32,000 nucleotides of DNA from Halogeometricum borinquense DSM 11551 (GTDB lineage: Archaea; Halobacteriota; Halobacteria; Halobacteriales; Haloferacaceae). The notes under the pieces were generated by a model that was not told the DNA's origin, did not search any database, and worked only from the letters and a program-made list of their open reading frames with translations. This document shows, in pieces, positions 6,183-32,000 of the stretch. The translations under genes were made by a program, and so were the position numbers. Position 1 is the first letter of the stretch. Each line of letters opens with the position of its first letter. Location of the stretch: the NCBI RefSeq assembly GCF_000172995.2, contig NC_014729.1, forward strand, positions 1,440,001 to 1,472,000, given 5' to 3'.

Positions 6183-6191
6183 CTTTACTTA
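6183..6191 (+). promoter_or_regulatory. TATA-like box upstream of tRNA-Lys
   Basis: CTTTACTTA is centred about 29 nt upstream of tRNA position 1. The same spacing is seen at tRNA-Leu and at several leaderless CDSs in this window. Confidence 0.4.
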
Positions 6192-6215
6192 CCCCGCAGA
6201 AACGAGAAATCGTAC

Positions 6216-6289
6216 GGGCCGGTAGCTCAGTTAGGGAGAGCGTCTGACTCTTAATCAGACGGTCAAGGGTTCAAATCCCTTCCGGCCCG
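6216..6289 (+). tRNA. tRNA-Lys (anticodon CUU)
   Basis: Hand-folded cloverleaf. The acceptor GGGCCGG pairs with CCGGCCC. D arm: GCTC/GAGC with the GG loop. Anticodon stem: TCTGA/TCAGA with loop CTCTTAA (CUU at positions 34-36). T arm: AAGGG-TTCAAAT-CCCTT. Discriminator G. No encoded CCA and no intron. Confidence 0.93.
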
Positions 6290-6420
6290 CTTCCTACGGA
6301 ATGACCAGGAAATGGTCAAGTGAGCGGTAGCGCTACCGACCACACCACGTTTCCGGTGAAATCTGTTTCAATACGCTCTAATATCCACGAATTCGGCAGA
6401 TCTGGTTGTCGGCTTTACCG

Positions 6421-6777
6421 TCAGACTTCGACGTGTTCGGTGGACTCGCGGTGTTCTGTCTCGGAACCGCGGCGCTGGCGTAGTTCGTCGTCGTGCGCTG
6501 CTGCATTCGCCATCGCTTCGGTGGTCACACCGACGAGTTCCGTCACGCGCCATGCGTTCCCGCGTGCCCCCACTGACTCCATCTGCAACGGGACGGTCGC
6601 ACCTGCCGGAAGTTCTGTCAACGTCTTTTCGACCGTCTCGTCCGCGAATTCGACAAGGTGACGCACCTCACACGACGCTTCGATGCGTACCGTCATCGCT
6701 CCGTGGTCGTTCATCGGCCACTCGATGCGAGCGATGATTGTCTCCGTGTGGGATGGGTTGGTGGTATGATACCACAT
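6421..6777 (-). CDS. Hypothetical protein (118 aa, orphan)
   Basis: Codon third positions are G/C-rich and the composition is acidic. A TATA-like TTTAATA (forward 6801-6807) is centred about 27 nt upstream of the ATG. I recognise no family motif. Confidence 0.55.
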   Translation of the reverse strand: MWYHTTNPSHTETIIARIEWPMNDHGAMTVRIEASCEVRHLVEFADETVEKTLTELPAGATVPLQMESVGARGNAWRVTELVGVTTEAMANAAAHDDELRQRRGSETEHRESTEHVEV

Positions 6778-6912
6778 GCCAGTTTACACTGACTACACTG
6801 TATTAAACTCTCGTTTGCAGAATATGAGTTTATTATCAAAGTATGAGACTCTGCTAGATACGTGAAGAAATCCACCGACTCAATAGACGTTCGTCTAGTT
6901 TTGCCGCCGAGA

Positions 6913-7398
6913 CTAGTCGTCGAGTAATTCGTCCAGTAGGGTCTCTAACTCGTAGTTCTGCAAGACGCGTGCGCTGTCTCGGAGTGACGAGATGACGAAC
7001 GTGGAGTTCGTCCGGTCAACCTCGTCTATCGTCTCGAAGTCGGTGATGAGTCGTTCGACCATCTCCCGCCCCGAAAGGTGAGCGACGACGATGAAATCCG
7101 TTTCACCCATCGTGAAGTACGCCTGTGTGACGCCCTCTACATCGAGAATCTTCTCTTTGAAATCGTGGTGGGAGCCACTGTAGTCAGTGAGTATCTCCAC
7201 GACGACGGTGACGCCGAGTCCGACCTTTTCCAAATCGATGTCGTACAGGTCGTTCTTGATGACGCCCGCCTCGCGCAGATTGTTCAACCGATAGTGAATC
7301 GTTGAGACAGGAATACCGGTCTCTTCGTGCAGTTGTTCCGGGCTTCCCGTTTCGAGGTCAGATATCGCCTTCAGGAGGCGGATGTCGCGTTCGTCCAT
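6913..7398 (-). CDS. Lrp/AsnC family transcriptional regulator
   Basis: The N-terminal HTH (RDIRLLKAISDLETGSPEQLHEETGIPVSTIHYRLNNLREAGVI) is followed by a RAM/AsnC C-terminal domain (VTVVVEILTDY..., TQAYFTMGETDFIVVAHL). Confidence 0.9.
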   Translation of the reverse strand: MDERDIRLLKAISDLETGSPEQLHEETGIPVSTIHYRLNNLREAGVIKNDLYDIDLEKVGLGVTVVVEILTDYSGSHHDFKEKILDVEGVTQAYFTMGETDFIVVAHLSGREMVERLITDFETIDEVDRTNSTFVISSLRDSARVLQNYELETLLDELLDD

Positions 7399-7608
7399 GG
7401 CCGCGGTGTCTGTGAATACACGCCTTAGGGGTTGTATGTTCCGCCTCGTTTCTTAGGGTTCCCTGTCTTGTTTCAGCTTGACAGTGGGGTTACTCTGCAA
7501 ACAATTCGTATATTTCCCGATCTATAATGCGTCAATATGCCTCTATTTTGTATTCTAATCGAAGTTCTAGCGGACTCTTGTAGACAACTTTAACACAGGC
7601 CACCTCTG

Positions 7609-11053: not shown

Positions 11054-12979
11054 TCAGTCCGCGAGGAAGTCGGGTTCGAGGCGCTTTTCGTCGTATTCGG
11101 CCTCGAGATGTTCACGGAACGCGTCGATAGACACGTCCTGCTCCTCGCGTTCCTGTCGGTCGCGTACCGAGATGGTGCCGGATTCCTCCTCGTTCTCGCC
11201 GACGATGAGCATGTACGGCACGTTGTCCTCCTGGCCCTCTCGAATCTTCCGTCCGAGCGTCCACGACCGGTCCTCGACGGAGACACGGAAGTCGCCGAGT
11301 TCGTTCTTCACGCGGTGGGCGTAGCCGAGTTGGTCGTCCGAGATGGGGAGGATGCGAACCTGCTCGGGTGCCAGCCAGAACGGGAACTTGCCGTTGAAGT
11401 GCTCGATGAGCACCATGAAGAATCGCTCGTAACTGCCGTAGAGGGCGCGGTGAATCATCACCGGACGGTGTTCCTCGTTGTCCTCGCCCGTATACGTCAG
11501 ATCGAACCGTTCGGGCATGTTGAAGTCAACTTGCACCGTCGGGCCGTCCCACTTGCGGCCGAGCGCGTCCTCGAACGAGAAGTCGATCTTCGGCCCGTAG
11601 AACGCGCCGTCGCCGGGTTCGAGGTCGTAGTCGATGTTCTGATTTTCCAGCACCGAGCGCAGTTGCGACTCGGACTGCTCCCAAATCTCGTCGCTGCCGA
11701 CGGATTTCTCCGGGCGCGTGGCGAGGGCGACGTGCGCCTCAAGTCCGAACGTGTCCAGCACCTCGTAGATGGAGTTCATCACCTGCCGAATCTCCTGCTC
11801 GATCTGCTCGGGGCGGCAGAACAGGTGGCCGTCGTCGATGGTGAACGACCAGACGCGCGAGAGACCCGACAGCTCGCCGCGCTGTTCTTTTCTGTAGACT
11901 TTCCCGTCCTCGAAGTAGCGAACGGGCAGGTCGCGGTACGACCACGAGTTCTGGTCGAAGATGGTCGCGTGGCCGGGGCAGTTCATCGGCTTCAGGCCGT
12001 ACTCCTCGTCGTTCACGTCGAGGAGGAACATATCGTCCACGTAGTTGTCGTAGTGGCCCGACTTCTTCCACAGTTCCGTGCGGAACAGATGCGGCGTCTC
12101 GACCGGTTCGTAATCGGCATCAAGGTTCAATGACTCCGCGAACTCGGACAGCTCAGAGAGGATCCGCTTGCCGTTCGGATGGTAGAGCGGCAGTCCCGGC
12201 CCCGTGACTTCGGGGATGGAAAAGAGATCCATCTCCCGGCCGATTTTCCGGTGGTCGCGCTCTTCGGCCTCCGCGCGGAGTTCCATATACTCTTTCAGGT
12301 CCTTCTCGGACTCGAACGCCGTGCCGTACACGCGCGTCAGCGTCTCGTTCTCCTCGTCGCCGCGCCAGTAAGCCGAGGAGATGTTGAGGAGTTCGACCGC
12401 GCCGATTTTCCCCGTCGATTCGACGTGCGGACCCTTACACAGGTCCTCGAACTCACCTTGGACGTAGAAGGAGAGTTCGTCGTCGCCGGCCGCCTCGTTC
12501 TCGAGGATGTCGCGCTTGTACGGGTTCTCCTCGTACAGTTCGAGGGCGTCCTCGCGCGACCGAAGTTCGCGTTCGACCGGGAGGTCTTCTTCGATGATCT
12601 CCTCCATCTCGTCCTCGATTGCTTCGAGGTCATCAGCGTCGAGATCGACGTTCGTTACGTCGTAGTAGAATCCCTCGTCCGTCGATGGGCCGATGGCGAG
12701 CTTTGCTTCGGGGTACAGACGCTGCAATGCTTGGGCGAAGACGTGTGCGGCGGTGTGGCGGAGGACGCGGAGGTATTCGTCACTCTGGTCCGTGACGATG
12801 ACGACTTGGGCACCGTCGTGGACGGGGGCGGCTTTGTCCACGAGTTCACCGTCTACGACGCCCGCGACGGTGTCCTCACCGAGTCCCGGTCCGATTTCGT
12901 AGGCGACGTCCTCGACCGTCGCACCCTCCTCGACAGACAGCTCCGAGCCGTCGGGAAGGTTCACAACGAGTTCACTCAT
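11054..12979 (-). CDS. thrS: Threonine--tRNA ligase
   Basis: 641 aa from ATG 12979 ([30 protein letters not shown], a TGS domain). It has the second-additional-domain HxxxH ([12 protein letters not shown]), a class II core ([39 protein letters not shown]) and a C-terminal anticodon-binding domain. The 74 codons upstream of 12979 in the track ORF are non-coding-like. Confidence 0.95.
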
Positions 12980-13103
12980 GTGCGTTCGGAATCGGAGCGT
13001 ACGAATAAGTGTTTTTGAAGGGCGCGAGTGGGTCGCACGGCCGTTCGGAACGCACCGTGTGAGTGGCCACACGCTTATCTTTCCAGCCACGGACAGACGA
13101 TGC

Positions 13104-14591
13104 ATGAGATTCGACCGGCAGTCGGGCGTTTTCGCGCACGTTCCGTCGCTCCCGGGCCCCCACGGAATCGGCGACCTCGGCGACGGCGCGCGCGCCTTCA
13201 TCGATTGGCTCGCCTCGGCCGAACAGTCGCTGTGGCAGTTCTGTCCGCTCGGTCCGACAGCGTCGATTCACGGCCACTCGCCGTACCAGTCGTACTCCGC
13301 GTTTGCGGGCAACCCACTACTCGTTGACCTCGATCAACTCCGCGAGGACGGCTATCTGACTGACGACGACCTCGAACCCGTTCCTGCATTCTCCGACCAC
13401 GAAATCGAGTACGACCGGGTAGCCGAGTACAAACGGGAGCAACTCCGAACCGCGCACGAACGCTTCCAGTCCGAGGCGACCACCGAGGACCGCGAGGCGT
13501 TCGACGCGTTCCGCGAACACGAGTCGTCGTGGCTGGACGGCTACGCTCTGTTCATGGCGCTCCGAACCCGCTACGACGGTGCGTGGACGACGTGGCCACA
13601 GGAGATTCGAACGCACGACGAGGCGGCCATCAATCGGCACCGCGAGGAACTCGCAGACGAGATTTCGTACCGGGAGTTCGCCCAGTTCGTCTTCGATACG
13701 CAGTGGCGCGAGTTGAAGGCGTACGCGAACGATCACGGCGTCAAACTCGTCGGCGACCTGCCTATCTACGTCGCCCTCGACAGCGCAGACGTGTGGGCCG
13801 CACCCGAGGCGTTCGATCTGACTGAGGAGAACGAACCCGTCGCTGTCGCGGGTGTCCCGCCAAATCCGAACGACGACGGCCAACGCTGGGGCAACCCCCT
13901 GTACGACTGGGACTACCTCCGCGAGAACGACTACGACTGGTGGATGGACCGCCTCGAACGACTGTTCGAACTCGTGGACGTGACCCGCATCGACCACTTC
14001 AAAGGCTTCGATGAGTACTGGGCTATCCCGGCGGACGCACACTCGCCCGCAGCGGGTGAATGGCGCGATGCCCCGGGACACGACTTCTTCGAGACCGTCG
14101 AGGACCAGTTCGGTGATCTGCCGTTCATCGTGGAAGATCTCGGGTTCCTCGATCAGCGTATGACCGACCTCCGCGACCGGTTCGGGTTCCCCGGCATGCG
14201 CGTCCCGCAGTACGCAAACTGGTGCCAAGAGGGAGATATGTACCAACCGATGCATTTCCCCGAAAACAGCGTCGGTTACACCTCGACGCACGACACGAAC
14301 ACGTTCGTCGGCTACTACCGCGATCTGCCGGCTGACCAGAAAGACTGCCTCCACTACAATATCGGTGCGGACGGCTCCGAGATTCACTGGTCTATCATCG
14401 ACGCCGTCTGGCGCTCGAACGCCGTCATCGCGTTCACGACGATACAGGATATTCTCGGCCTCGGCGCGGAGGCGCGCTTCAACGTTCCCGGTACTACTGA
14501 CGGAAACTGGCGGTGGCGGTGTACAGAGGAGGGATTCGACGAGGAGTTAGCGTCCCGACTGGCGAGGCTGACCGACGAACACATCCGGTGA
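13104..14591 (+). CDS. malQ: 4-alpha-glucanotransferase (amylomaltase, GH77)
   Basis: It carries [54 protein letters not shown] and YTSTHDTNT. Start at ATG 13104 (MRFDRQSG). Confidence 0.92.
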
Positions 14592-14681
14592 ACCGCCTCG
14601 GCCTGCTCCGCCTGTAGACTGCGTTGAATCACCCGGGTTAGACTGCGGTCCGATCCGACGAGGCGGGAGGCGCTGTCTCGG

Positions 14682-15143
14682 TCACTCCTCAAATCGGCTG
14701 TACGGACGCCGGTGTGTGTTCCGAATCAGGTCTTCGTCCGACACGCGGAGTCCGAGTTCGTCCAACTCTTCGCCGATACGACTCAAGTCGTCGCCGTCAA
14801 CGCCGATAGCACGTACCAGCACGTTTGCTTCGCCGGTCATCACCTCCTGCACTTCCACGACGCCCGGCACGTCTGCGGCCGCTGCGGCGAGTTCTTCGCG
14901 TTCCGGAATCGGGGCCGTACAGACGATGAGCGTGAACAGTTGGTAGCCCGCGTCCTCGTAGTCAACGTCGGCGTGGTAGCCACGGATGATGCCGTCGGAT
15001 TCGAGCCGCTGGATGCGGTTCCGGACGGTACTGGCCGATACATCGAGTGATGCTGCGATATCGTTCGACGAGGTATGTCGCGCCTCCGCTTGGAGGCTGT
15101 AGAGGATTCGCCTGTCGAGCGAATCGAGATCTCGAATCGACAT
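14682..15143 (-). CDS. Lrp/AsnC family transcriptional regulator
   Basis: LDSLDRRILYSLQAEARHTSSNDIAASLDVSASTVRNRIQRLESDGII is followed by a RAM domain (YQLFTLIVCTAP...). ATG 15143 is preferred over the upstream TTG 15170. Confidence 0.88.
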   Translation of the reverse strand: MSIRDLDSLDRRILYSLQAEARHTSSNDIAASLDVSASTVRNRIQRLESDGIIRGYHADVDYEDAGYQLFTLIVCTAPIPEREELAAAAADVPGVVEVQEVMTGEANVLVRAIGVDGDDLSRIGEELDELGLRVSDEDLIRNTHRRPYSRFEE

Positions 15144-15307
15144 CTGGTGCAACGTTTGACGAGCAGTCAATTAATACTGCCCACTGAATATTAGCAGAAG
15201 CGGAATATAGATCTATAATCTCCACGACTCGATAACTCTATATTTATACTATCGGACAGTCGCCACTTTCTAAGGAGTGGAGTGGGAAGTACGACCGCCG
15301 ACGAACA

Positions 15308-16387
15308 ATGAACTCAACAGAAATTGGTCTCCGCCTCGTTGCAGGTGTCTTGCTCATCCTCGCAAACGGGTTCTTCGTCGCCATCGAGTTCGCGCTGACA
15401 CGCGCTCGCCAGTTCTCCGAATCGGAGTTCGTAGACGGCGACAGCAGACTCGAACGTGCGTGGGCGATGACGCAGGACCTCGAACTGTATCTGACCACTT
15501 GTCAGGTCGGTATTACGGCGTCAAGCATCGCGGTCGGTATCGTCGCCGAACCGGCGCTGGCAGCGTTGTTTGAACCGCTGTTTGCGGGAACGACGCTGGC
15601 GACTGTCGGCGCGGGTGCGATCATCGCGTACGGTATCATCAACCTCGTCCACCTGACGCACGGGGAACAGGCACCGACGTACCTCGGCGTCGAGCGCTCG
15701 CGGCTAGTGTGCCGGTACGGTGCTGCGCCGCTGTACTGGTTCTACCTCATCATCTCGCCGCTCATCTCGCTCGGGGATTCGGTGGCAAAGTGGACGCTGC
15801 AGTTGTTCGGCATCGAGATGACCGGCGCGTGGCTCGAAGCCGAGGAAGACGCCATCGAGTCGCGTGCCCAACTGCGTAGCCGACTCAGTTCGCTGCTGGA
15901 GCGCGGTGAACTCTCCGGCGAGCGTCACGACGAGGTACTGGGTGCGCTGAAGGCCGGTACTACCGAGGTTCGGGAAGTAATGGTTCCCAAGTCGGATATT
16001 GTGGCCCTCTCGACCGATGCGTCAGTTGCAGAGAACCTCGACCGCGTCACCGAGACGCCACATACGCGGTATCCGCTCGTCGGATCGAATCTCGAAACCG
16101 TCGAGGGCATCGTGTACGTTCCGAGCGTCGTCGCCCGCATTGAAGAGTTGAAAGGCGGTGAAACGGCGTTTTCGGATATCGCGGCACCGCCGATGACCGT
16201 GTCGGCCGACACCTCCGTCAGTGATGCTATCGACCGGTTCCAAGCGGAGCGGCAGGAACTCGCCGTGGTGTTCGAAGACGGAGATGTCGTCGGCCTGCTG
16301 ACTGCAACCGACGCGCTGGAAACCGTGATGGGTGAACTGGAAGACCCCTTGGACGCCGACTTCCGCGCTGAACGGACACCAGCGTAA
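15308..16387 (+). CDS. CNNM/DUF21 transmembrane domain + CBS-pair protein (HlyC/CorC-type divalent cation efflux family)
   Basis: The N-terminal part is DUF21-like (LLILANGFFVAIEFALTRAR, HGEQAPTYLG). It is followed by two CBS-like modules (VREVMVPKSDIVAL..., AFSDIAAPPMTVSADTSVSDAIDRFQAERQELAVVFEDGDVVGLLT). Confidence 0.88.
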   Translation: MNSTEIGLRLVAGVLLILANGFFVAIEFALTRARQFSESEFVDGDSRLERAWAMTQDLELYLTTCQVGITASSIAVGIVAEPALAALFEPLFAGTTLATVGAGAIIAYGIINLVHLTHGEQAPTYLGVERSRLVCRYGAAPLYWFYLIISPLISLGDSVAKWTLQLFGIEMTGAWLEAEEDAIESRAQLRSRLSSLLERGELSGERHDEVLGALKAGTTEVREVMVPKSDIVALSTDASVAENLDRVTETPHTRYPLVGSNLETVEGIVYVPSVVARIEELKGGETAFSDIAAPPMTVSADTSVSDAIDRFQAERQELAVVFEDGDVVGLLTATDALETVMGELEDPLDADFRAERTPA

Positions 16388-18158: not shown

Positions 18159-18575
18159 ATGGACTGCAGAGTCGTCGTCGAGGCCGCGGTTCCCGTCTAC
18201 GACGTTGAGACGGCGGACGAGGCCATTCGAATCGCCATTGCGAAGACTGGTGAACTGCTTAACCCAGATCTTAATTACGTCGAGATAAATATGGGGTCTC
18301 GAACTTCCCCATCGGGTGAGGAACTTCTCCCGGCGTTCGTCGCTGCCGACGAGGCACTGGTCGCCCTCGAACTGGAGATGACAGTGTTCAACGTCGAACA
18401 GGAGGAACACGCCGCCCGAATCGCACGTAAGGAGATCGGTCAACGGCTGGAGAACGTCCCGCTAACGGTTCTAGAGGTCGAAGTGCTACCTTCCGAGGAG
18501 GAGGAAGAAGAACAGTCCGCCGAGTCGGACGACGACCTCATTCCCGAGTTCGACGACCTCGTCGACGAGGGGTAA
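18159..18575 (+). CDS. Conserved archaeal UPF0212/DUF555-like protein with an acidic C-terminal tail
   Basis: CRVVVEAAVPVYDVETADEAIRIAIAKTGELLNP ... ALVALELEMTVFNVEQEEHAARIARKEIG resembles the UPF0212 family as I remember it. I could not run a search to confirm. Confidence 0.65.
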   Translation: MDCRVVVEAAVPVYDVETADEAIRIAIAKTGELLNPDLNYVEINMGSRTSPSGEELLPAFVAADEALVALELEMTVFNVEQEEHAARIARKEIGQRLENVPLTVLEVEVLPSEEEEEEQSAESDDDLIPEFDDLVDEG

Positions 18576-18828
18576 TTTCTCGCGCGCGCCCACTGTCTCG
18601 ACCGACTCTGCTCTCGTATGGGCGGTCTTTTCACCTCGCGCGCGGTCCGTTATCCTCCTCATCACCCACCGTTTTGTCCGGCCTACTCTCCAAGTAGTAT
18701 CGTCCGCGTGACACAGTAACTGCGGAGGAAGTTTCTCGCCGAGAGCGTATCAAATTCATCAGTCGGCATTGCAGAGAGCCGTCGCTCAGGAATTTGGGGG
18801 CGTCGAGGATCGCTGTTTTTCTGGCGTT

Positions 18829-19065
18829 TCAGTCCGCGTGCGGTGCGACGGCTTCTTGCTCGGGTTCGTCGAGAGACGACGTGATTCCTTTTACGAGTTT
18901 GAAAACAGCAGCCTTGTGGTCGGTTTTGGACTTGTGAATTGACGTCGGTCGGACGCCGAGTTCGTTGTATGCTGTGAGTGGAACCTCGTCGTTTTCCCAC
19001 TCCTCGATTTGTGTGTGTACTTCCGCGAGCAGGCCGTGCAGGTGGATGAGTTCCTGCTTCTTCAT
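18829..19065 (-). CDS. UPF0058 family small protein
   Basis: MKKQELIHLHGLLAEVHTQIEEW is a typical UPF0058 N-terminus. The ATG at 19065 lies 2 codons inside the track ORF, which begins at a TTG. TAATATAA sits about 31 nt upstream. Confidence 0.65.
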   Translation of the reverse strand: MKKQELIHLHGLLAEVHTQIEEWENDEVPLTAYNELGVRPTSIHKSKTDHKAAVFKLVKGITSSLDEPEQEAVAPHAD

Positions 19066-19266
19066 GAGCAAACCTCAGTTGAGACTGGAGGATTATATTA
19101 CTATCTTGACCCTCGTTAGCATGCACCCGCCGAATCCCCCGCCAAACGCCGTCCTGAGCCAAATTTCAATACTTTAGATGATTATGAAATATATATTACA
19201 CATAAACTAACGACTGGCCGCCGAATCCCATGAACGTTTTAGACGCCGCGTTCCCTTCGACCACCT

Positions 19267-19674
19267 ATGGACTACGAGGACCAACTCGACAAGGCACTTG
19301 ACGAGTCTCCGGACGTTACTGACAGAGGGAGTCGCTTTCAGGTCCCCGAACCGGTGGTCCGACCGGAAGGCAACGCGACGGTGTACGAGAATTTCGACGA
19401 GACGTGCGACCGACTCGCACGAGAGCCGTCGCATCTGATGAAGGCGCTTCAGTCGGAACTCGGAACGAGCGCGCAGATCGACGAGAAGGGGAGAGTCCGC
19501 CTCACGGGCGACTTTAGCCAGCGCCGCGTGCAGGACGCGCTTGACTCCTACGTAGACGACTACGTCCTCTGTAGCGAGTGCGACTCGCCCGACACGCGGC
19601 TGGTCACCGAGCAGGGCGCGATGGTACTGAAATGCGACGCGTGCGGTGCCCTCTCGGCAGTTCCGGACCTGTAG
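19267..19674 (+). CDS. eif2b: Translation initiation factor aIF2 subunit beta
   Basis: MDYEDQLDKALDE..., YENFDETCDRLAREPSHLMKALQSELGT, and a C-terminal zinc ribbon (CSECDSPDT...LKCDACG). TTTTAGA sits about 29 nt upstream. Confidence 0.93.
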   Translation: MDYEDQLDKALDESPDVTDRGSRFQVPEPVVRPEGNATVYENFDETCDRLAREPSHLMKALQSELGTSAQIDEKGRVRLTGDFSQRRVQDALDSYVDDYVLCSECDSPDTRLVTEQGAMVLKCDACGALSAVPDL

Positions 19675-20013: not shown

Positions 20014-21006
20014 TTAGGCGAATAAGCCCGCATCATCCACTTCGAGCAATTCTTTGTACCGGTTTCGGATAGTGACCTCCGAGATGCTGGCCACCTCGCT
20101 TACCTCACTCTGCGTCACCTTCTCGTTGGTGAGCAACGCGGCGGCGTAGACGGCGGCCGCGGCGAGACCAACGGGAGATTTGCCCGAGTGAATCCCGGCC
20201 TTTTTCGCGTTCCGAAGCAGGTCGCGTGCCTGTCGCTCTGCCTCGTCGGAGAGATCAAGTTCGGAGGCGAACCGCGGAACGTACTGCTCGGGGTCGGCAG
20301 GTTCGATTTCCAGCTTTAGCTCGCGGACGACGTAGCGGTACGTCCGGGTTAACTCCATCTTATCGACGCGAGAGACGGTCTCCAACTCGTCGAGCGAGCG
20401 GGGAGTACCGGCCTGTCGCGCCGCAGCGTAGAGTGCGGAGGTAGCGACGCCTTCGATGGACCGACCGGGGAGGAGGTCGTCGTCCAGCGCACGGCGGTAG
20501 ATGACCGAGGCCGTCTCGCGGACGTTCTCGGGGAGACCGAGCGCCGAAGCCATCCGGTCGATTTCACCGAGCGCCTGCTTTAGGTTCCGCTCCTTGGAGT
20601 TACGCGTGCGGAAGCGCTCGTTCCACGTCCGTAGGCGCTGCATCTGCTCGCGCTGGCGGGCCGAGAGCGCCTTTCCGTAGGCGTCTTTGTTCTGCCAGCC
20701 GATGTTGGTAGACAGTCCTTTGTCGTGCATCATACGCGTCGTCGGCGCACCGACACGCGACTTCGAGTCGCGCTCGGAGCTGTTGAACGCGCGCCATTCC
20801 GGACCGCGGTCGACGGCGTCCGTCTCGACGACGAGTCCACAGTCTCCGCAGACTGTCTCGCCCCGTGCCTCGTCGGTTATCAGTGATCCGCCACACTCTG
20901 GGCAGACCTGCGTTTCCTCTTCTGTCTCTTCTTCTGTCACCGCCTCGTCTGTGTTCTCGCGTCGTCGGTCTGTACTTACGTACTCTCTCGTTGTTGTGTC
21001 ACTCAT
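20014..21006 (-). CDS. tfb: Transcription initiation factor IIB (TFB)
   Basis: It has a zinc ribbon (CPECGGSLITDEARGETVCGDCG), a B-reader/linker (GPEWRAFNSSERDSKSRVGAPTT) and two cyclin repeats. ATG 21006 (MSDTTT) is preferred; the track ORF starts at 21030. Confidence 0.93.
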   Translation of the reverse strand: MSDTTTREYVSTDRRRENTDEAVTEEETEEETQVCPECGGSLITDEARGETVCGDCGLVVETDAVDRGPEWRAFNSSERDSKSRVGAPTTRMMHDKGLSTNIGWQNKDAYGKALSARQREQMQRLRTWNERFRTRNSKERNLKQALGEIDRMASALGLPENVRETASVIYRRALDDDLLPGRSIEGVATSALYAAARQAGTPRSLDELETVSRVDKMELTRTYRYVVRELKLEIEPADPEQYVPRFASELDLSDEAERQARDLLRNAKKAGIHSGKSPVGLAAAAVYAAALLTNEKVTQSEVSEVASISEVTIRNRYKELLEVDDAGLFA

Positions 21007-21101
21007 GGTGGGATGCAGACTCATCGCCATCCGGGTGAAGAGTAAAGAAATGAGAGAGACTCCGGGTGGGCTGAGTCCTTACTCTTAGTAATTTTCGAGA
21101 G

Positions 21102-21109
21102 TATATAAA
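21102..21109 (-). promoter_or_regulatory. Strong TATA element (TTTATATA on the minus strand) upstream of tfb
   Basis: Forward TATATAAA at 21102-21109 is preceded on the minus strand by a purine-rich BRE-like GGGGAAAC. It lies about 95-100 nt from the tfb ATG, implying a leader of about 70 nt. The sequence is near-palindromic and could fire in both directions. Confidence 0.45.
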
Positions 21110-21381
21110 TGTTTCCCCAAATTCAACCAGAGAAAACCGCAGTACAGCACCGATAATCGTCTAAAACCGTCTTTTTTGGGACATATGGCATCACCTCACA
21201 TGCAGGTCTTATGGCTTTCGGCCTCTGTCCGTTCTCTGGCTAGCTGAGAGAGCGGACGCTCGAAACAGGACTTATCTTGATTCACCACCAAGTTCTACGA
21301 TCTTATTCACTGTAACCGAGTGAACGTTCTGCACCCTCGGCACTTCGGCTACACTGATAGTATCGGGGTCTACTCTGTCGT

Positions 21382-22380
21382 TCACAGCCATCCCTCGCGG
21401 TCGAAATGATACAGGAGGATGAGCGTCACAAGGGCCATCCCGAGCATCACCGCCGGATACGCGTACGACCACGAGAGTTCCGGCATATTCCACGCGCCGT
21501 CGCTGAAGTTCATCCCGTAGATGCCGACAACGAACGTGAGCGGGATGAATATCGTTGCAACGACGGTGAGACGGCGCATCACCTCGTTTGTCGATTGAGA
21601 GAGCGCGTTCAGGTAGATATCTCGCGAACCGCGCGCTAACTCCCGGTATGTCTCCGTCAGATCCACGATTTCAATGAGGTGGTCGTACACGTCTCGATAG
21701 TATTTCTCGGTCGATTCGCGGACGTGCGCCGCGTCACCGCGTGCGAGTACTGAAACGGCCTCCCGGGTCGGCCACACGACCTTTCGGAACGAGAGCAGAT
21801 CGCGTCTGACGGTGTTCAGACCATCCAGTATATCCGGGTCTGGCCCTTCGAGTACACCGTCTTCGATCACCTCTATTGTATCCTCTATCTCATCAAGAAG
21901 GTCGAAATAGTCGTCTACGACTCGGTCGAGGATGCGATATGCCACGAAATCGGGTCCGTTGACGAGGATGCGCCCTTCACGGTTCTCGACAGACTGCCAG
22001 ACGCGCTCGACAGCCGTCACAGCCGTTTCCTCGACGGTCAGGGTTACCACCCAGTCTTGGCCGATAAACATGCCTACAGGGCGTGTCTGCACTTCTTCAT
22101 CGAACGTCGTCTCTCCGCGCCGGAGCGACGCTGATTTCACGAGAACGAACGTGTGGTCGTGAAACTCCTCTGTTTTCGGCCGCACGTCGCTCCGAATATC
22201 TTCGAGTTCGAGCGTGTGAATCGAGAAGACGCGCGAAATCGTATCGATCTCCTCCGGCGTCGCGGCCGAGACGCGAACCCACGTCGTCCCGTGGGCGTCC
22301 CGCGCTGCTTCGAGATCCGACGCCGACTCGACGGAAACCGTCTCGACACCGCCGGCGTCGTACACTTGTGCGGAAATCAC
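21382..22380 (-). CDS. corA: CorA family magnesium/cobalt transporter
   Basis: GMN motif (GIYGMNF) between two C-terminal TM helices (LTVVATIFIPLTFVVGIYG, YAYPAVMLGMALVTLILLY). GTG start at 22380. Confidence 0.92.
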   Translation of the reverse strand: MISAQVYDAGGVETVSVESASDLEAARDAHGTTWVRVSAATPEEIDTISRVFSIHTLELEDIRSDVRPKTEEFHDHTFVLVKSASLRRGETTFDEEVQTRPVGMFIGQDWVVTLTVEETAVTAVERVWQSVENREGRILVNGPDFVAYRILDRVVDDYFDLLDEIEDTIEVIEDGVLEGPDPDILDGLNTVRRDLLSFRKVVWPTREAVSVLARGDAAHVRESTEKYYRDVYDHLIEIVDLTETYRELARGSRDIYLNALSQSTNEVMRRLTVVATIFIPLTFVVGIYGMNFSDGAWNMPELSWSYAYPAVMLGMALVTLILLYHFDREGWL

Positions 22381-22538
22381 GCTCCGTCCCCACTCGTCCC
22401 GATAGCGAGTAACGTCACACCGACCATGAGGCCTACGAGTGACGCGGAGCGACCCGGATACGGCGTGATAACGCCGACACCGTAGCCGACGAGTGAGAGC
22501 CCGATCAGAACGCTCCCAGCGGTCCCTTCGCGGTTCAT
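22377..22538 (-). CDS. Small two-helix membrane peptide (53 aa) overlapping the corA start, absent from the ORF track
   Basis: Hand translation: MNREGTAGSVLIGLSLVGYGVGVITPYPGRSASLVGLMVGVTLLAIGTSGDGA-stop. GC3 is about 72%. The stop TGA (22379-22377) overlaps the corA GTG (22380-22378) as GTGA. An A/T-rich AATAATACTTTT lies about 30-40 nt upstream of the ATG. Confidence 0.6.
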   Translation of the reverse strand: MNREGTAGSVLIGLSLVGYGVGVITPYPGRSASLVGLMVGVTLLAIGTSGDGA

Positions 22539-22652
22539 GCGTCTGTCGTCCTGCGCCGGAGAGAAAAGTATTATTCAGCTGTCAACATCGAGTGCTCCAC
22601 ATCCGAAATCGAACGATCCCATTCTCATGGAGCGTTCGGGGTTCCGCCCAGT

Positions 22653-23327
22653 TTAGGCGGCCTGTTCGGTGGTCCCGTTCGCTTCAGCCGGGTGTTCGAT
22701 TGCTCGCATCATCGACATGATGTTGTTTTCTTCGCTGTCGAGCTTTTGCGGGTAGAGTCCGAGACCGACGATGAAGTCCTCACCGTCTTTGTATTTCATG
22801 ACGTGAACGTACACGTCAACTCGCTCTCCGTTGATCGTCGCCTTCGCAGCGAACTTCGTCACTTCTGTTTCCTGTCCTTGGACAGTGATCGTCTGTGAAC
22901 TGACTTTGTTCACGTCGCTGAGGCCTTGATACTGGGTTTCGACGAGTCCCACGAGTTGTCTACTTGAGTAGTCGGAGATGGGGTTCATCGTCTGTCCGGC
23001 GACTTCGACGGCGGGCGAGGAGATAACGGTAAACATCCCCAACTTCGCCTCGAAGATGGTGAGATCGAGCGTCTTCTCGTACGTAGTCACTTGATTTTTG
23101 GCGACGACGTGCCGTTCCTGTCCGGCCACAGTGACCGTCTCGTTCACTTCGACGGTTTGCGGACCATCGGTTGCGTACCCGGCGCTTTCGGCCGCTGATT
23201 CGTCTACGACCGCTGGTTTCGCGGCGAAGGAAAGTGACTCCTCACCGGTCAGAAAGCCGATACAGCCTGTTGTCGTCGTGAGTATCGCAACTGCGAGGAC
23301 CGCAGCCACGATACGACGGGTTGTCAT
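22653..23327 (-). CDS. Secreted Tat-type lipoprotein of unknown function
   Basis: The signal MTTRRIVAAVLAVAILTTTTGC has a twin arginine, a hydrophobic core and a lipobox Cys. The mature part is Thr/Val/Gln-rich and looks beta-rich. Confidence 0.75.
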   Translation of the reverse strand: MTTRRIVAAVLAVAILTTTTGCIGFLTGEESLSFAAKPAVVDESAAESAGYATDGPQTVEVNETVTVAGQERHVVAKNQVTTYEKTLDLTIFEAKLGMFTVISSPAVEVAGQTMNPISDYSSRQLVGLVETQYQGLSDVNKVSSQTITVQGQETEVTKFAAKATINGERVDVYVHVMKYKDGEDFIVGLGLYPQKLDSEENNIMSMMRAIEHPAEANGTTEQAA

Positions 23328-28981: not shown

Positions 28982-29066
28982 GCGCGGGTAGCCAAGCCTG
29001 GCCAACGGCGCAGCGCTTAGGACGCTGTCTCGTAGGAGTCCGCCGGTTCGAATCCGGTCCCGCGCA
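28982..29066 (+). tRNA. tRNA-Leu (anticodon UAG), class II with a long variable arm
   Basis: Hand-folded cloverleaf. The acceptor GCGCGGG pairs with CCCGCGC. The D arm is GCC(A)/GGC with the GG loop. The anticodon stem is CAGCG/CGCTG with loop CTTAGGA (UAG). The variable arm is 14 nt (CTC-GTAG-GAG hairpin). The T arm is GCCGG-TTCGAAT-CCGGT. Discriminator A. No CCA and no intron. Confidence 0.92.
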
Positions 29067-29101
29067 CTTCTCCGCTCTGAACGAACGTGAAGAGCGGGAA
29101 G
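29067..29101 (+). other. Bulged hairpin immediately 3' of tRNA-Leu
   Basis: CTTC-T-CCGCTC(T) pairs with (A)GAGCGG-GAAG, giving about 11 bp with one bulged T and a 12-nt loop, GAACGAACGTGA. Confidence 0.6.
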
Positions 29102-29169
29102 TGTGCAACGGCCGGTGAGAACCCTGCAAGGAACGCGCAGTGAACTGACGTGAGCGAGCATTTCTTGCT

Positions 29170-29193
29170 CCGGTTCGAATCCGGTCCCGCGCA
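29170..29193 (+). repeat. Exact 24-nt copy of the tRNA-Leu 3' end (att-like relic, copy 2)
   Basis: CCGGTTCGAATCCGGTCCCGCGCA is identical to 29043-29066. There is no 5' half of a tRNA upstream. Confidence 0.9.
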
Positions 29194-29224
29194 TTTTCTG
29201 TCCGAGCGATAGCGAGGACGAAAA
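29194..29224 (+). other. Bulged hairpin immediately 3' of repeat copy 2, homologous to the one after the tRNA
   Basis: TTTTC-T-GTCC pairs with GGAC-GAAAA, giving 9 bp with one bulged T at the equivalent place and a 12-nt loop, GAGCGATAGCGA. Eight of 12 loop positions match the first hairpin's loop. Confidence 0.6.
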
Positions 29225-29273
29225 TCGATACGAGCGGATTCGAAGCAGGGAACGGAGCGAAGCGGAGTGACTG

Positions 29274-29298
29274 CGGTTCGAATCCGGTCCCGCGCACT
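29274..29298 (+). repeat. Copy 3 of the tRNA-Leu 3' end (23 nt plus 2 nt of trailer identical)
   Basis: CGGTTCGAATCCGGTCCCGCGCA-CT matches 29044-29068. The upstream base differs, or one C is deleted. Confidence 0.88.
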
Positions 29299-29510: not shown

Positions 29511-32000
29511 ATGGCTGATGCCGACGCTCTCCACGATGCTCTACTAAATATCGGTGAGCAGACGAACGACGATATGAGCGAGAGAGACGTAGAAAACCTC
29601 TTTCTGGAACAAGGATTCTATAATGCTCTCGACTACGAAGGAACGGGTACTGACCTCAGAAGCGAGTTCACACTCCCGGACGACCGGCGACCAGATTACA
29701 TCACTCTTGACTCGAACGAGGCCGTCACCGCAGTCTACGAATTCAAGACGACCGGTCGAAGCCTCCCGCCTCACGAATCGCAACTGTTCCACTACATGGA
29801 CTACCTCCGGGCGGAGTACGGCGTCCTGACCAACGGAGAGCAGTTGCGACTCTACCGGCGCGGCGAAGACCGACCGCTCCTCGTCGTCTCCCTCGAATCG
29901 GTTACAGAGGGTGATGCCCGCGACCTCGTTAGTGCCCTCCAGAAGCGCGACTTCGACCTCACGGATCCGGACGACGTGAATCAGTTCCTCGCAGACCTCG
30001 ACCCGATTCCGCTCGACGCGCAGTCGGAACTCGGGCAGGAACACTTCTTCGATACGTTCCGACTGGAGGACGACAGCCCGTTCGCCGACCTCGTCACCGG
30101 GATGATGGACCTCCTGCATGAACTCCGGGACGAGAACGAGGCGAAGTTCGTGAAAGGCGCTTACGACTTCTGGGAGGCGACATACGCCGACGAGCCGGAC
30201 GAGGTGCCGAACTCATGGGACCCGTTCATCAACGGGAAGCAGTCGCTTCGAGACTTCATGTTCTGTCTGGAGAGCGGACACGCGCTTCTCGCACGGCTCC
30301 TACTAGCGAAGGCCACCGAGGACCACGATTTCTTCGCGGGCACTGGATACGATGGGATGGACGACTACTTCCGCGGGTTGCAGGGCTTCGGCGACACCAT
30401 CAACCTCGATGCATTCCCCGTCGCGGCGGACGACCTCATCGACGATATGCAGGAGCAGTTAGTCGAAGGGCTGTTTCAGGACGACATCTTCATCTGGTGG
30501 ACTGACGGATACAGAGAGCAGATTGATACTCAGCACGCGAGCGGGCCGAGCCGGTTCGAGGACGTAGCACGCGGATCCGGTGACGTGGAACGTGTCAGCG
30601 AGACTACTCGGGACCGCTTCAGCCGCGCCGTCGCCGAGGTGTTCTTCAACGTCCTACGGTTCGACTTCCAAGACGTGGAGGGCGATCTCCTCGGGGACCT
30701 CTACCAGCGGTATTTCGACCCGGAGACGCGCAAGGCACTCGGCGAGTTCTACACGCCACAGCCGGTCATCGACTACATCATGGACGGCGTCGGCTACGAG
30801 CGCGGCGTCTCGAACGAGCGACTCATCGACCCGTCGTGTGGGTCCGGGACCTTCCTCGTGGAGGCCGTCGAGCGGTACATCACCGACGTGGAGAACTTCG
30901 AGGACAACCCCGACTGGGAGGAGCATCTACGCGACCTCTGTACCCGCCCGCGCATTGTTGGGCTTGATATACACCCGTTCGCTGTTCTGATGGCACAGAT
31001 TCGCTTCGTGGTCGCTATCCTCCCGGCGTATCGAGAGGCGAAAACGCAGAATCCCGAGTTTACCATTCGGCGGCTCCCAATCTACCGAACCGACACCCTC
31101 CGAAACGAGCGGGAACTGACGGGCGCGGACCTCGGCGACGACGGCACCCGGCAGATGACCTTCGACGCGATGACCGAGGACGACCAAGACGTACGGATTC
31201 CCGTCCCGCTTCCGGTGGAAGTAGACGAGGACGAGGTCGCCGAAACCGAGGACGGCTTCCTCGTGCGCCGGGTTCGGATGCCGCTGTTCGACACGATTCA
31301 GTTGGAGACTGGCGTCAAGAACTTCGGGGAGTATTTCGCGGCCCTACAAGGCGTCTTGGACACCGTCAAGGACCATATGGCGCTGGCCGAGGAATTCGGC
31401 GGCGACTTCGACTGGGAATACAAGAGTGGGCTGGAGGAGCGCATCAACCAGCACACGTCGCGGGACTACTCTGGGGTAGAGGAGTTCTTCACACCCTACG
31501 TGAACGATATGCTGGAGAACGTGCGCTACCTGAAGGAGGAACACAACGACGGACGGCTGTTCAAGATGTTCGAGGACACCGTGCTCGCGCTCGTCGTGAA
31601 GAACTACATGGAGTACGACTACGTCGTGGGGAATCCGCCGTATGTGAATATCAAATATATCTCCGATACCGCGCAAGAACGCTACACCAGACTATACGAT
31701 TCAGCATTTGGGCGTTTTGACCTCTATGTTTTATTTATTGAGCGTGGACTGGAGATGCTAACTGAGGACGGCGAGTTAGGTTACATTACCTCGAATAAGT
31801 TTGCCCGTGCAGAGTATGGGAGAGAAATCAGGCGGTTAATCAGTTCGGAGTATTCCTTGGCGGAGTACATCGACTTTGGCGATACAGAGGTATTCAAGGA
31901 CGCAACTAATTACCCCTGTATTCTGTTTGTTGACCGTGATAGAAATAGAAAAACCGTCCCATATGCAAAAATTAGACGAGAACAAGATAATATCCTCGAT
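29511..32000 (+). CDS. Type IIG-like restriction-modification fusion protein (N-terminal PD-ExK nuclease + gamma-class N6-adenine DNA methyltransferase), 3' end beyond the window
   Basis: This ORF is not in the track because it has no stop inside the window. I translated 830 codons by hand from ATG 29511 and found no stop. The nuclease core is RRPDYITLDSNEAVTAVYEFK (PD...ExK), followed by GVLTNGEQLRLY as in HsdR-N-type nucleases. The FYTP motif is LGEFYTPQPV. SAM motif I is LIDPSCGSGTFLVEAV and motif II is IVGLDIHPFA. Catalytic motif IV is YDYVVGNPPYV (NPPY at 31632-31643). Confidence 0.85.
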   Translation, partial: MADADALHDALLNIGEQTNDDMSERDVENLFLEQGFYNALDYEGTGTDLRSEFTLPDDRRPDYITLDSNEAVTAVYEFKTTGRSLPPHESQLFHYMDYLRAEYGVLTNGEQLRLYRRGEDRPLLVVSLESVTEGDARDLVSALQKRDFDLTDPDDVNQFLADLDPIPLDAQSELGQEHFFDTFRLEDDSPFADLVTGMMDLLHELRDENEAKFVKGAYDFWEATYADEPDEVPNSWDPFINGKQSLRDFMFCLESGHALLARLLLAKATEDHDFFAGTGYDGMDDYFRGLQGFGDTINLDAFPVAADDLIDDMQEQLVEGLFQDDIFIWWTDGYREQIDTQHASGPSRFEDVARGSGDVERVSETTRDRFSRAVAEVFFNVLRFDFQDVEGDLLGDLYQRYFDPETRKALGEFYTPQPVIDYIMDGVGYERGVSNERLIDPSCGSGTFLVEAVERYITDVENFEDNPDWEEHLRDLCTRPRIVGLDIHPFAVLMAQIRFVVAILPAYREAKTQNPEFTIRRLPIYRTDTLRNERELTGADLGDDGTRQMTFDAMTEDDQDVRIPVPLPVEVDEDEVAETEDGFLVRRVRMPLFDTIQLETGVKNFGEYFAALQGVLDTVKDHMALAEEFGGDFDWEYKSGLEERINQHTSRDYSGVEEFFTPYVNDMLENVRYLKEEHNDGRLFKMFEDTVLALVVKNYMEYDYVVGNPPYVNIKYISDTAQERYTRLYDSAFGRFDLYVLFIERGLEMLTEDGELGYITSNKFARAEYGREIRRLISSEYSLAEYIDFGDTEVFKDATNYPCILFVDRDRNRKTVPYAKIRREQDNILD

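What the first reader, a model, noticed from the sequence alone, without database searches (positions are those of the whole stretch)
31632..32000. Codon usage switches abruptly inside the R-M gene at the NPPY catalytic motif
By hand count, the 57 codons preceding GNPPY end in G/C about 89% of the time (51/57). The 119 codons after NPPY end in G/C only about 45% of the time (54/119). Overall GC falls from about 57% (31321-31620) to about 43% (31681-32000). After the break the codons are AAT, AAA, TAT, TTT, TTA, ATT and AGA, which are rare elsewhere in the window. The reading frame and methyltransferase-like sequence continue uninterrupted (…FGRFDLYVLFIERGLEMLTEDGELGYITSNKF…). The gene therefore looks mosaic. 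The nuclease and N-terminal methylase half is host-like, while the C-terminal half (the remaining methylase motifs and presumably the TRD) appears to come from a low-GC donor. The junction sits at the most conserved motif. That is the kind of recombination that would swap specificity in a type IIG enzyme, and it may also mark the true edge of the foreign DNA.
Basis: seen in the sequence. Interest (0 to 1): 0.7.

Follow-up and report, generated by a model that had tools for sequence, protein, structure and literature searches.

The report
Mosaic restriction-modification gene, swapped recognition module
A large single-chain restriction-modification gene of the salt-loving archaeon Halogeometricum borinquense has had its DNA-recognition half replaced by recombination exactly at the NPPY catalytic motif, which is a clear but ordinary example of how such defence enzymes change their target sequence.

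Summary
GC3 falls from 0.79 to 0.45 at window 31632-31641, and only synonymous positions change.

The window is H. borinquense DSM 11551. The gene is a 1250-codon Type IIG-like enzyme (nuclease, gamma-class m6A methyltransferase, TaqI-like TRD). It lies in a ~5.5 kb islet beside tRNA-Leu(UAG).

A second H. borinquense strain carries the same locus. The two are 99-99.8% identical in DNA up to window 31639. From there they are unalignable until the islet's right-hand tRNA-repeat.

Over the whole gene the low-GC3 tract is an internal block, codons 711-1155. Host-like sequence flanks it on both sides, giving an A-B-A mosaic. Block B holds methylase motifs V-VIII and the TRD. It belongs to a divergent subfamily of the same haloarchaeal gene family, and that subfamily is AT3-rich wherever found. 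Its nearest known relatives are only 57-67% identical, so the donor is unidentified.

A MAG carries the same A-to-B junction at NPPY, probably from an independent event.

The junction is not the edge of the foreign DNA, because the whole gene is island-borne. This is a new example of a known process, allelic recognition-module replacement. Interest is modest.

The parts
28982..29067 (+). tRNA-Leu(UAG), the integration target at the left border of the islet that carries the R-M gene
   Evidence: ARAGORN. The same tRNA precedes the homologous gene in the other H. borinquense strain (L030) and in MAG QH_9_66_26 (L035).
29172..29193 (+). Exact 22-nt copy of the tRNA-Leu 3' end (att-like remnant). 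Present in the window strain and L032, absent from L030.
   Evidence: L031 11234-11255; window = L031 + 17938.
29275..29296 (+). Second exact copy of the tRNA-Leu 3' end. It lies inside a 59-nt direct repeat (window 29235-29293) whose 97% partner lies 5.4 kb downstream, beyond the gene (L031 16731-16789). Together they bound the islet.
   Evidence: (family D2).
29511..32000 (+). First 830 codons of a 1250-codon Type IIG-like restriction-modification gene. It continues to window-equivalent 33263 (L031 11573-15325).
   Evidence: Pfam Eco57I scores 104.8 bits (cut-off 25.3). N6_Mtase and TaqI_C also match. There are 703 homologues, mostly ~1300-aa haloarchaeal proteins.
29676..29870 (+). N-terminal PD-(D/E)XK-type nuclease region (residues 56-120). 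It contains RRPDYITL...VYEFK.
   Evidence: Pfam HSDR_N 23.5 bits and HSDR_N_2 17.5 bits, both just below their cut-offs of ~25. The PD...ExK motif is read directly from the translation.
30681..30890 (+). AdoMet-binding half of the gamma-class N6-adenine methyltransferase (residues 391-460). It includes GEFYTPQPV and motif I DPSCGSGTF.
   Evidence: Pfam N6_Mtase 60.4 bits and MmeI_Mtase 33.9 bits. This is among the most conserved parts of the family.
30821..31007 (+). Short gene-conversion-like patch. It has 22 mismatches, mostly synonymous (the two proteins differ at only 2 residues there), giving 88.8% identity to the conspecific allele. The flanks are 99.8% identical. GC3 dips locally to 0.60-0.63.
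31536..31640 (+). The stretch of the gene most conserved in DNA across haloarchaeal genera (codons 676-700: nt identity 0.86, GC3 0.85). It ends at the NPPY codons. The crossover lies between the last shared polymorphism at 31553 and the first divergent base at 31640.
31629..31643 (+). GNPPY, methyltransferase motif IV. Both the GC3 change point and the homology breakpoint fall here.
31641..32000 (+). Start of the type-B low-GC3 block. The whole block is codons 711-1155 and ends near window-equivalent 32975. It holds methylase motifs V-VIII, then the TaqI-like TRD (residues 921-1078).
   Evidence: The post-NPPY part aligns with the solved methyltransferases CamA (7lni) and M.BseCI (7qw5).

Best explanation
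The gene encodes a single-chain Type IIG-like restriction-modification enzyme. Its parts, in order, are an N-terminal PD-(D/E)XK nuclease, a helical region, a gamma-class N6-adenine methyltransferase, a TaqI-like target-recognition domain (TRD) and a conserved C-terminal tail. It belongs to a family found in many haloarchaeal genera. Here it sits in a ~5.5 kb integrase-less islet next to tRNA-Leu(UAG).

The DSM 11551 allele is a three-part mosaic:
- Residues 1-~707 are ordinary 'type A' and are nearly identical in protein (2 substitutions), 99-99.8% in DNA, to the allele of another H. borinquense strain.
- Residues ~708-1130/1155 are 'type B'. They come from a deeply diverged subfamily of the same family. 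They comprise methylase motifs V-VIII plus the TRD.
- The last ~100 residues are type A again, but are not the same as in the conspecific allele.

The mosaic arose by homologous recombination with an incoming family member. The left crossover fell in the ~85-nt stretch before the NPPY codons. That stretch is nearly identical in DNA across genera and is the last homology before the alleles diverge. The right end of the replaced segment lies at the tRNA-derived repeat that closes the islet.

The GC3 step is the compositional scar of this event. Type-B sequence is AT3-rich wherever it is found. The type-A parts have host-like GC3.

Shown: the step, the breakpoint, the A-B-A similarity pattern and the island borders.
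Inferred: the direction of the event (the window allele is the derived one), the mechanism (homologous recombination), and the consequence. Because one TRD directs both methylation and cleavage, the consequence would be a new recognition sequence for the whole enzyme.
For: Identity of the window: it is 100% identical over 12 kb to L031, H. borinquense DSM 11551 assembly GCA_000337855.1.

Strain comparison: strain GCA_004150395.1 (L030/L001) is syntenic. Its flanks are 99.65% identical. The gene's 5' part is 99.0% identical overall and 99.8% outside one patch. Alignment stops at window 31639. Identity resumes only at L031 16760, and the C-terminal tail is 70% identical in DNA.

Composition: GC3 segmentation of the full gene gives 0.79 / 0.44 (codons 711-1155) / 0.74, with LLR 74.

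Similarity plot: residues 1-705 match type A, 706-~1080 match P0115/P0116/P0118, and 1140-1250 match type A again (P0005, P0007 and P0008 at 80-97%).

Direction: in the other strain's allele (P0001) the N-part and the motif V-VIII region share the same nearest relatives at 90-93%. That allele is therefore continuous across NPPY, and the window allele is the derived one.

Family modularity: in 99 full-length proteins the N-part forms one cluster at >=70% identity. The motif V-VIII region forms 6 clusters at >=50%, and the TRD forms 11.

Recurrence: the same A-to-B junction at NPPY occurs in P0003/L035, also next to tRNA-Leu. Its B block is closer to P0115/P0118 than to the window's.

Composition of type B: whole type-B genes are AT3-rich, with post-NPPY GC3 of 0.34-0.62 in 57-60% GC genomic surroundings.

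Anchor: the ~85 nt before NPPY carry only 1-10 differences from the window in most of the 26 other loci (up to 19 in the most divergent, L002). They are the most conserved DNA window of the family.

Assembly: the same protein sequence spanning the junction (P0076) is recorded on two contigs, including the 2.82 Mb chromosome. This argues against an assembly chimera.
Against: No donor was found. The best matches to block B are 57-67% identical in protein. Nothing closer exists in plasmids or phages, where matches are <=31%.

The C-terminal tail also differs from the conspecific allele. So either the incoming gene was already an A-B-A mosaic or more than one event occurred, and the order of events is not resolved.

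A GC3 dip in the variable region is family-wide and correlates with conservation (r=0.85). Part of the compositional contrast may therefore reflect processes other than recent import.

Enzyme activity and recognition sequences were not measured. A methyltransferase fold made of halves from subfamilies only 33-39% identical in the motif V-VIII region might be impaired.
Confidence: 0.85

Rival explanations
1. No recent transfer occurred. The step reflects a property of the whole family. Conserved segments hold G/C-ending codons, through selection on codon choice or GC-biased repair in segments that can still recombine. Fast-evolving recognition segments drift to A/T-ending codons.
For: Across 25 loci the mean GC3 is 0.74-0.86 before NPPY and 0.53-0.69 after it. 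Per-window DNA conservation and GC3 correlate at r=0.85. The conspecific allele also has a low-GC3 TRD, starting 150 codons later.
Against: Two strains that are 99.65% identical in flanking DNA have unalignable sequence from base 31640 onward. In-place drift cannot produce that. The step coincides to within a few bases with the homology breakpoint. The correlation is partly circular, because strong G/C-ending bias itself raises third-position identity.
Confidence: 0.1
2. Block B was imported directly from a low-GC organism, for example a ~45-48% GC haloarchaeon or one of its mobile elements. Its composition still reflects that genome.
For: Two metagenomic contigs with 44-46% GC overall (L037, L038) carry type-B genes whose GC3 (0.38-0.46) matches their surroundings. 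Their flanks are 46-48% GC.
Against: Those copies are only 61-66% identical to the window protein and carry in-frame stop codons. Their organism could not be identified. The flanks are only 1.5-2.4 kb and could themselves be AT-rich islands. Type-B genes in Halovivax cerinus, Halorubrum saccharovorum and a metagenomic contig are AT3-rich inside 57-60% GC surroundings. Low GC3 therefore travels with the gene lineage and does not prove a low-GC host.
Confidence: 0.25
3. Programmed variation: a shufflon or 'domain movement' system that exchanges the expressed recognition module with silent cassettes in the same genome.
For: Such systems are known for Type I S genes and the S genes of a Type IIG system (PMC3077401).
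Against: No second copy or fragment of any part of the gene exists in the window or in 20.5 kb around it (tblastn). No intragenic repeats flank the block; only short, low-identity chance repeats were found. No recombinase gene is in the islet.
Confidence: 0.02
4. Assembly chimera joining two different genes at a conserved motif.
For: Highly conserved motifs shared by paralogues can mis-join reads.
Against: The window is 100% identical over 12 kb to an assembly record of the strain (L031). The junction-spanning protein P0076 is recorded on two contigs, including the 2.82 Mb chromosome. The ORF is intact for 1250 codons, and the downstream islet structure is coherent.
Confidence: 0.01

Closest known systems
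Single-chain Type IIG / IIL restriction-modification enzymes (Eco57I, MmeI, BpuSI families)
   Same: One polypeptide carries an N-terminal PD-(D/E)XK nuclease, a gamma-class N6-adenine methyltransferase and a C-terminal TRD. One TRD serves both activities (Pfam Eco57I, N6_Mtase, MmeI_Mtase and TaqI_C; PMC2582602 and PMC3185434 for the architecture).
   Different: At 1250-1300 aa it is much larger than BpuSI. About 250 residues separate motif I (residue ~440) from motif IV (residue 708). It also has an extra conserved ~120-residue C-terminal tail. No member of this haloarchaeal family was found characterised in the papers searched.
Allelic TRD replacement and 'domain movement' in Helicobacter pylori R-M genes (Furuta et al., PMC3077401; PMC3983042)
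   Same: Recognition modules fall into discrete homology groups. They are exchanged between alleles by recombination in the conserved sequences that flank them, which changes specificity.
   Different: In H. pylori the exchanged unit is a TRD in an S subunit or Type III mod gene, flanked by short repeats. Here the unit is half of the catalytic methyltransferase fold plus the TRD of a single-chain enzyme. The left joint is at motif IV, there are no flanking repeats, and no movement between positions within the gene is seen.
Experimental reassortment of TRDs in the Type IIB/IIG enzymes AloI, PpiI and TstI (recalled from memory: Jurenaite-Urbanaviciene et al., PNAS 2007; not checked here)
   Same: It shows that swapping recognition modules between related single-chain or bifunctional R-M enzymes yields active enzymes with new specificity.
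   Different: Those are laboratory constructs with junctions placed at TRD borders. This is a natural allele with its junction inside the methyltransferase domain.
CamA (7lni) and M.BseCI (7qw5), solved gamma-class adenine methyltransferases with TaqI-like TRDs
   Same: Residues 696-1069/1087 of the window protein align with their catalytic-plus-TRD parts at E~1e-30. Block B therefore corresponds to everything from motif IV to the end of the TRD.
   Different: They are stand-alone methyltransferases of ~580 aa with no nuclease.
PglX methyltransferases of BREX systems
   Same: The post-NPPY region gives partial NCBIfam matches (BREX-2 PglX, 177 bits).
   Different: The score is far below the cut-off of 400. 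No BREX partner genes are in the islet.

Membership tests
Type IIG restriction-modification enzyme (single chain) | gamma-class N6-adenine methyltransferase: motifs in the order X/I ... IV (NPPY), followed by a C-terminal TRD | tested here: met
   Pfam Eco57I scores 104.8 bits (cut-off 25.3) over residues 482-795. N6_Mtase scores 60.4 bits. TaqI_C scores 45.9 bits over residues 921-1078. DPSCGSGTF lies near residue 440 and NPPY at 708-711.
Type IIG restriction-modification enzyme (single chain) | Endonuclease domain in the same polypeptide | tested here: inconclusive
   HSDR_N (23.5 bits vs 25.1) and HSDR_N_2 (17.5 vs 25) both fall just below their Pfam cut-offs. A PD...(E)FK motif is visible at residues ~61-79, and this region is conserved at 76-88% across the family.
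Type IIG restriction-modification enzyme (single chain) | Site-specific methylation and cleavage at a distance from the site | not testable with these tools
   This needs methylome sequencing or enzymology. No data for this species were found in the papers searched.
tRNA-integrated genomic islet | Direct repeats of the tRNA 3' end bounding the inserted DNA | tested here: met
   The tRNA-Leu 3' end has exact 22-nt copies at window 29172 and 29275. A 3-mismatch copy lies at L031 16771, inside a 59-nt 97% direct repeat.
tRNA-integrated genomic islet | Integrase or other mobility gene inside the element | tested here: not met
   Only two genes lie between the repeats: the R-M gene and a 394-aa HsdR_N-domain gene. 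This is a remnant or a passively carried islet.
Domain movement (DoMo) / shufflon-type programmed TRD variation | Repeats flanking the TRD within the gene, and/or silent cassettes and a recombinase | tested here: not met
   No significant intragenic repeats were found. No extra copies of any gene segment exist in the locus. No recombinase gene is present.
BREX PglX | NCBIfam PglX model above its cut-off, together with BREX partner genes | tested here: not met
   The best hit is BREX_2_MTaseX at 177 bits against a cut-off of 400. The neighbouring genes are unrelated.

The most novel reading that the evidence does not exclude
The ~85-nt stretch ending at the NPPY codons is nearly invariant in DNA across haloarchaeal genera. 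It may act as a recurrent joint at which 'half-methylase plus TRD' cassettes are exchanged between genera. If so, this family evolves as a conserved high-GC3 scaffold (nuclease, AdoMet half, tail) plus a separate, persistently AT3-rich pool of recognition cassettes. The GC3 contrast would then be a standing property of two gene pools, or of recombining versus non-recombining DNA under GC-biased repair. It would not be a transient mark of one import.
Probability: 0.3. Interest if true: 0.5.

Novelty: new member of a known kind. Interest (0 to 1): 0.3.

Why it matters
This is a clean natural example in archaea of an R-M enzyme being re-targeted by module replacement between strains of one species. 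The breakpoint is mapped to within 87 bases and is visible as a codon-usage scar.

It gives a concrete prediction: the two H. borinquense strains should carry different m6A motifs attributable to this one locus.

The exchanged unit cuts through the methyltransferase fold at motif IV rather than at the TRD border. This suggests that chimeric catalytic domains are tolerated, which is useful for engineering Type IIG specificities.

The process itself, allelic recognition-module exchange in R-M genes, is well established. The finding therefore extends known biology and does not change it.

Tried and rejected
1. Exact look-up of the annotated product P0076 found no contig. The full gene was obtained by looking up the upstream CTP-transferase-like gene instead.
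2. The genome-contig scan returned 28 related loci but not the source genome.
3. A search for a closer relative of block B found only 55-65% identical metagenomic fragments, then 30-36% hits in other archaea. The listing did not repeat proteins already returned.
4. Plasmid and phage collections gave no donor. DNA hits were <=76% and only to conserved parts. Protein hits were <=31%, including Type IIG genes of HF1/HF2-like haloviruses.
5. Attempts to name the organism behind the low-GC contigs L037 and L038 failed. The cluster look-up gave no names. Flanking proteins had no Pfam family. The neighbouring TBP-like protein has only unnamed metagenomic relatives at >=53% identity, and its first named hit is 39% (Halorhabdus).
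6. The AlphaFold2 model of P0076 had mean pLDDT 59 and pTM 0.54. It was used only to note that a strand (P0076 residues 504-509) ends just before NPPY and further strands follow. No fold search was run on it.
7. The downstream 394-aa gene was considered as a possible remnant of a second family member. It shares only a 29%/95-aa nuclease-domain similarity, so this was rejected.
8. The synonymous-site conservation of the pre-NPPY anchor (0.69 against ~0.5) was considered as proof of a hotspot. It is not claimed, because GC3 of 0.85 alone raises chance identity at third positions.
Full report

Yes. The reading frame containing GNPPY (window 31629-31643) is open from 29403. Its likely start is ATG 29511, and it runs off the window end.

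- 51 of 57 codons before GNPPY end in G/C, against 54 of 119 after NPPY.
- GC is 57.3% over 31321-31620 and 43.1% over 31681-32000.
- The named A/T-ending codons are 3-18 times more frequent after the motif than before it or in four neighbouring host genes.

A maximum-likelihood change point falls at 31632-31641, with LLR 27.2. GC3 is 0.79 over 710 codons before it and 0.45 over 120 codons after it. No permutation out of 5000 exceeded LLR 10.2.

Positions 1+2 do not change. After correcting for amino-acid composition, 94 G/C-ending codons are expected and 55 are seen. The change is therefore in synonymous codon choice. The last 500 bases are the lowest-GC bin of the whole window.

**2. What and where is it?**

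The window is Halogeometricum borinquense DSM 11551. It is 100% identical over 12 kb to contig AOHT01000014.1 (L031; window coordinate = L031 + 17938). The protein database holds the same product, P0076, on the 2.82 Mb chromosome.

On L031 the gene is 1250 codons (11573-15325). Pfam finds the following:
- weak HsdR_N-type nuclease matches at residues 56-120;
- N6_Mtase and MmeI_Mtase at 391-531;
- Eco57I across 482-795;
- TaqI_C at 921-1078.

The PD...EFK, DPSCGSGTF and NPPY motifs are visible in the translation. Residues 696-1087 align with the solved methyltransferases CamA and M.BseCI. This is the architecture of a single-chain Type IIG enzyme.

More than 700 homologues exist, the best hundred-odd mostly ~1300-aa proteins, and almost all that carry an organism name are from haloarchaeal genera.

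The gene lies directly after tRNA-Leu(UAG) (28982-29067). Exact copies of the tRNA 3' end occur at 29172 and 29275. A degenerate copy inside a 59-nt 97% repeat lies 5.4 kb downstream, beyond the gene. Only one other gene lies between the repeats, a 394-aa HsdR_N-domain protein, and there is no integrase. The whole gene is therefore island-borne.

**3. The decisive comparison**

A second H. borinquense strain (GCA_004150395.1; L001/L030) has the same neighbourhood and the same gene position.
- Its flanks are 99.65% identical.
- The 5' 2.1 kb of the gene is 99.8% identical, apart from one 190-bp patch (window 30821-31007; 22 mismatches, almost all synonymous since the proteins differ at only 2 residues there; 88.8% identity).
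- The alignment ends at window 31639.
- No DNA similarity follows, except a 70% match in the last 400 bp of the gene.
- Identity resumes at the right-hand tRNA-derived repeat.

The last shared polymorphism is at 31553 and the first divergent base is at 31640. The crossover is thus mapped to 87 bases ending in the NPPY codons.

**4. The whole gene is A-B-A, not A-B**

Two-change-point segmentation of GC3 gives 0.79 (codons 1-710), 0.44 (711-1155) and 0.74 (1156-1250). Host genes in the window have 0.73-0.79.

A sliding similarity plot gives the same three parts:
- Residues 1-705 are type A. They are 100% identical to the conspecific P0001 and 87-100% to P0004-P0008.
- Residues 706-~1080 are closest to P0115, P0116 and P0118. 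Identity is 70-87% over motifs V-VIII and 27-80% over the TRD.
- Residues 1140-1250 are type A again, 80-97% to P0005, P0007 and P0008 and 37-67% to the B group.

The nearest relatives of block B are all 57-67% identical. They are P0003, P0115, P0116, P0118 (Halovivax cerinus), the gene of Halorubrum saccharovorum (L002), and metagenomic fragments.

In the conspecific allele P0001, the N-part and the motif V-VIII region share the same nearest relatives at 90-93%. That allele is continuous across NPPY, so the window allele is the derived recombinant.

**5. Family context**

In 99 full-length proteins the N-part is a single cluster at >=70% identity. The motif V-VIII region splits into 6 clusters at >=50% identity, and the TRD into 11.

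Across 25 loci with DNA, GC3 averages 0.74-0.86 before NPPY and 0.53-0.69 after it. Several genes show a step exactly at NPPY: Halorussus marinus, Halonotius terrestris, Haladaptatus and Halobium. Others, including the conspecific allele, step down ~150-200 codons later, at the start of the TRD.

Whole type-B genes are AT3-rich throughout, inside 57-60% GC surroundings. Two type-B copies lie on 44-46% GC contigs, but they carry in-frame stops and their organism could not be named.

The MAG QH_9_66_26 has its gene next to tRNA-Leu as well. It shows the same A-to-B switch at NPPY, but its B block is closer to P0115/P0118 than to the window's. This suggests an independent event at the same joint.

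The 75-85 nt before NPPY differ from the window at only 1-10 positions in most of the 26 other loci (up to 19 in the most divergent, L002). They form the most conserved DNA window of the family (nt identity 0.86, GC3 0.85).

Conservation and GC3 correlate along the gene (r=0.85). This relation is partly circular.

**6. Mechanism**

The best explanation is homologous recombination between the resident type-A gene and an incoming family member. The left crossover fell in the last stretch of cross-subfamily DNA homology, which ends at NPPY. The right end lies in the repeat or flank that closes the islet.

The replaced unit is the second half of the methyltransferase fold (motifs V-VIII) plus the TRD. 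It also includes a different tail and a neighbouring gene. One TRD guides both activities in such enzymes, and the two alleles' TRDs are 26-27% identical. A change of recognition sequence is therefore the expected outcome, but this is inferred and not shown.

In the AlphaFold2 model (mean pLDDT 59, used only locally) a beta strand (P0076 residues 504-509) ends just before NPPY and further strands follow. This agrees with the textbook position of motif IV after strand 4. The joint thus lies inside the catalytic domain.

**7. Rivals**

- Pure in-place compositional drift cannot produce unalignable DNA between strains that are 99.65% identical in their flanks. A family-wide bias towards AT3 in variable segments may still add to the contrast.
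- Direct import from a low-GC organism remains possible but unproven.
- A shufflon or domain-movement mechanism lacks cassettes, repeats and a recombinase.
- An assembly chimera is contradicted by the matching records.

**8. Comparison with the known, and verdict**

Allelic exchange of recognition modules by recombination in flanking conserved sequence is well documented for Type I S, Type III mod and Type IIG-associated S genes (PMC3077401, PMC3983042). Halobacteria are known to be rich in Type IIG genes (PMC10609329).

This is a new and unusually clean member of that kind. Its distinguishing detail is that the left joint is at motif IV, inside the methyltransferase fold.

Its extensions do not hold as stated. 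The low-GC tract is an internal block, not the whole C-terminal half. The donor's low GC is unproven. The junction is not the edge of the foreign DNA.

Noticed in passing
window 29045-29296 (and L031 16681-16795, outside the window): There are three identical copies of the 22-nt tRNA-Leu 3' end within 250 bp: the tRNA itself, 29172-29193 and 29275-29296. Two degenerate tRNA-derived copies lie after the islet. The other strain has one copy fewer on the left. This looks like the residue of several successive integrations or excisions at this tRNA, yet no integrase remains.
   Followed up: partly
window 30821-31007: A 190-bp patch inside the otherwise 99.8% identical 5' part of the gene carries 22 mismatches, mostly synonymous (only 2 amino-acid differences), against the conspecific allele. 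It has locally lower GC3 and covers methylase motif I. It is probably a separate short gene-conversion tract from another family member. None of the 37 loci examined matches it better than 89%.
   Followed up: partly
L031 15338-16522, minus strand (window-equivalent 33276-34460, outside the window): A 394-aa protein with an HsdR_N/MmeI_N-type nuclease domain lies just downstream of the R-M gene, on the opposite strand. It is present only in the window strain. The other strain has a 105-aa DUF3892 gene there instead. Homologues are annotated on several haloarchaeal plasmids. It may travel with the type-B block.
   Followed up: partly
window 29511-30104 (start of the gene): The NCBI product P0076 starts at an internal Met and is 1052 aa long. 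The ORF from ATG 29511 (1250 aa) matches the N-termini of homologues, including the nuclease region. The database annotation of this strain therefore appears to truncate the nuclease domain.
   Followed up: partly
L037 1-2691 and L038 487-4221: Both type-B genes on the low-GC metagenomic contigs carry a single in-frame stop. In L038 it is TAA at a conserved Gln. In L037 it is TAG at a conserved Tyr. Each gene is followed by a divergent TBP-like gene known only from metagenomes. They may be decaying copies on an uncharacterised low-GC element.
   Followed up: partly
window 6001-7500, 15001-15500, 18501-19500, 21001-21500, 22501-23000: Other stretches fall 5-10 points below the window's ~61% GC. 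The first begins at tRNA-Lys(CUU) (6216-6290) and could be another tRNA-associated insertion.
   Followed up: no
L011 and L012 (Halorubrum salinum); P0007 and P0008 (Halorussus marinus); several Halobacterium salinarum entries: Some haloarchaeal genomes carry two or more members of this family on different contigs. Resident paralogues could therefore act as recombination partners in those species. None was seen for H. borinquense in the data available.
   Followed up: no
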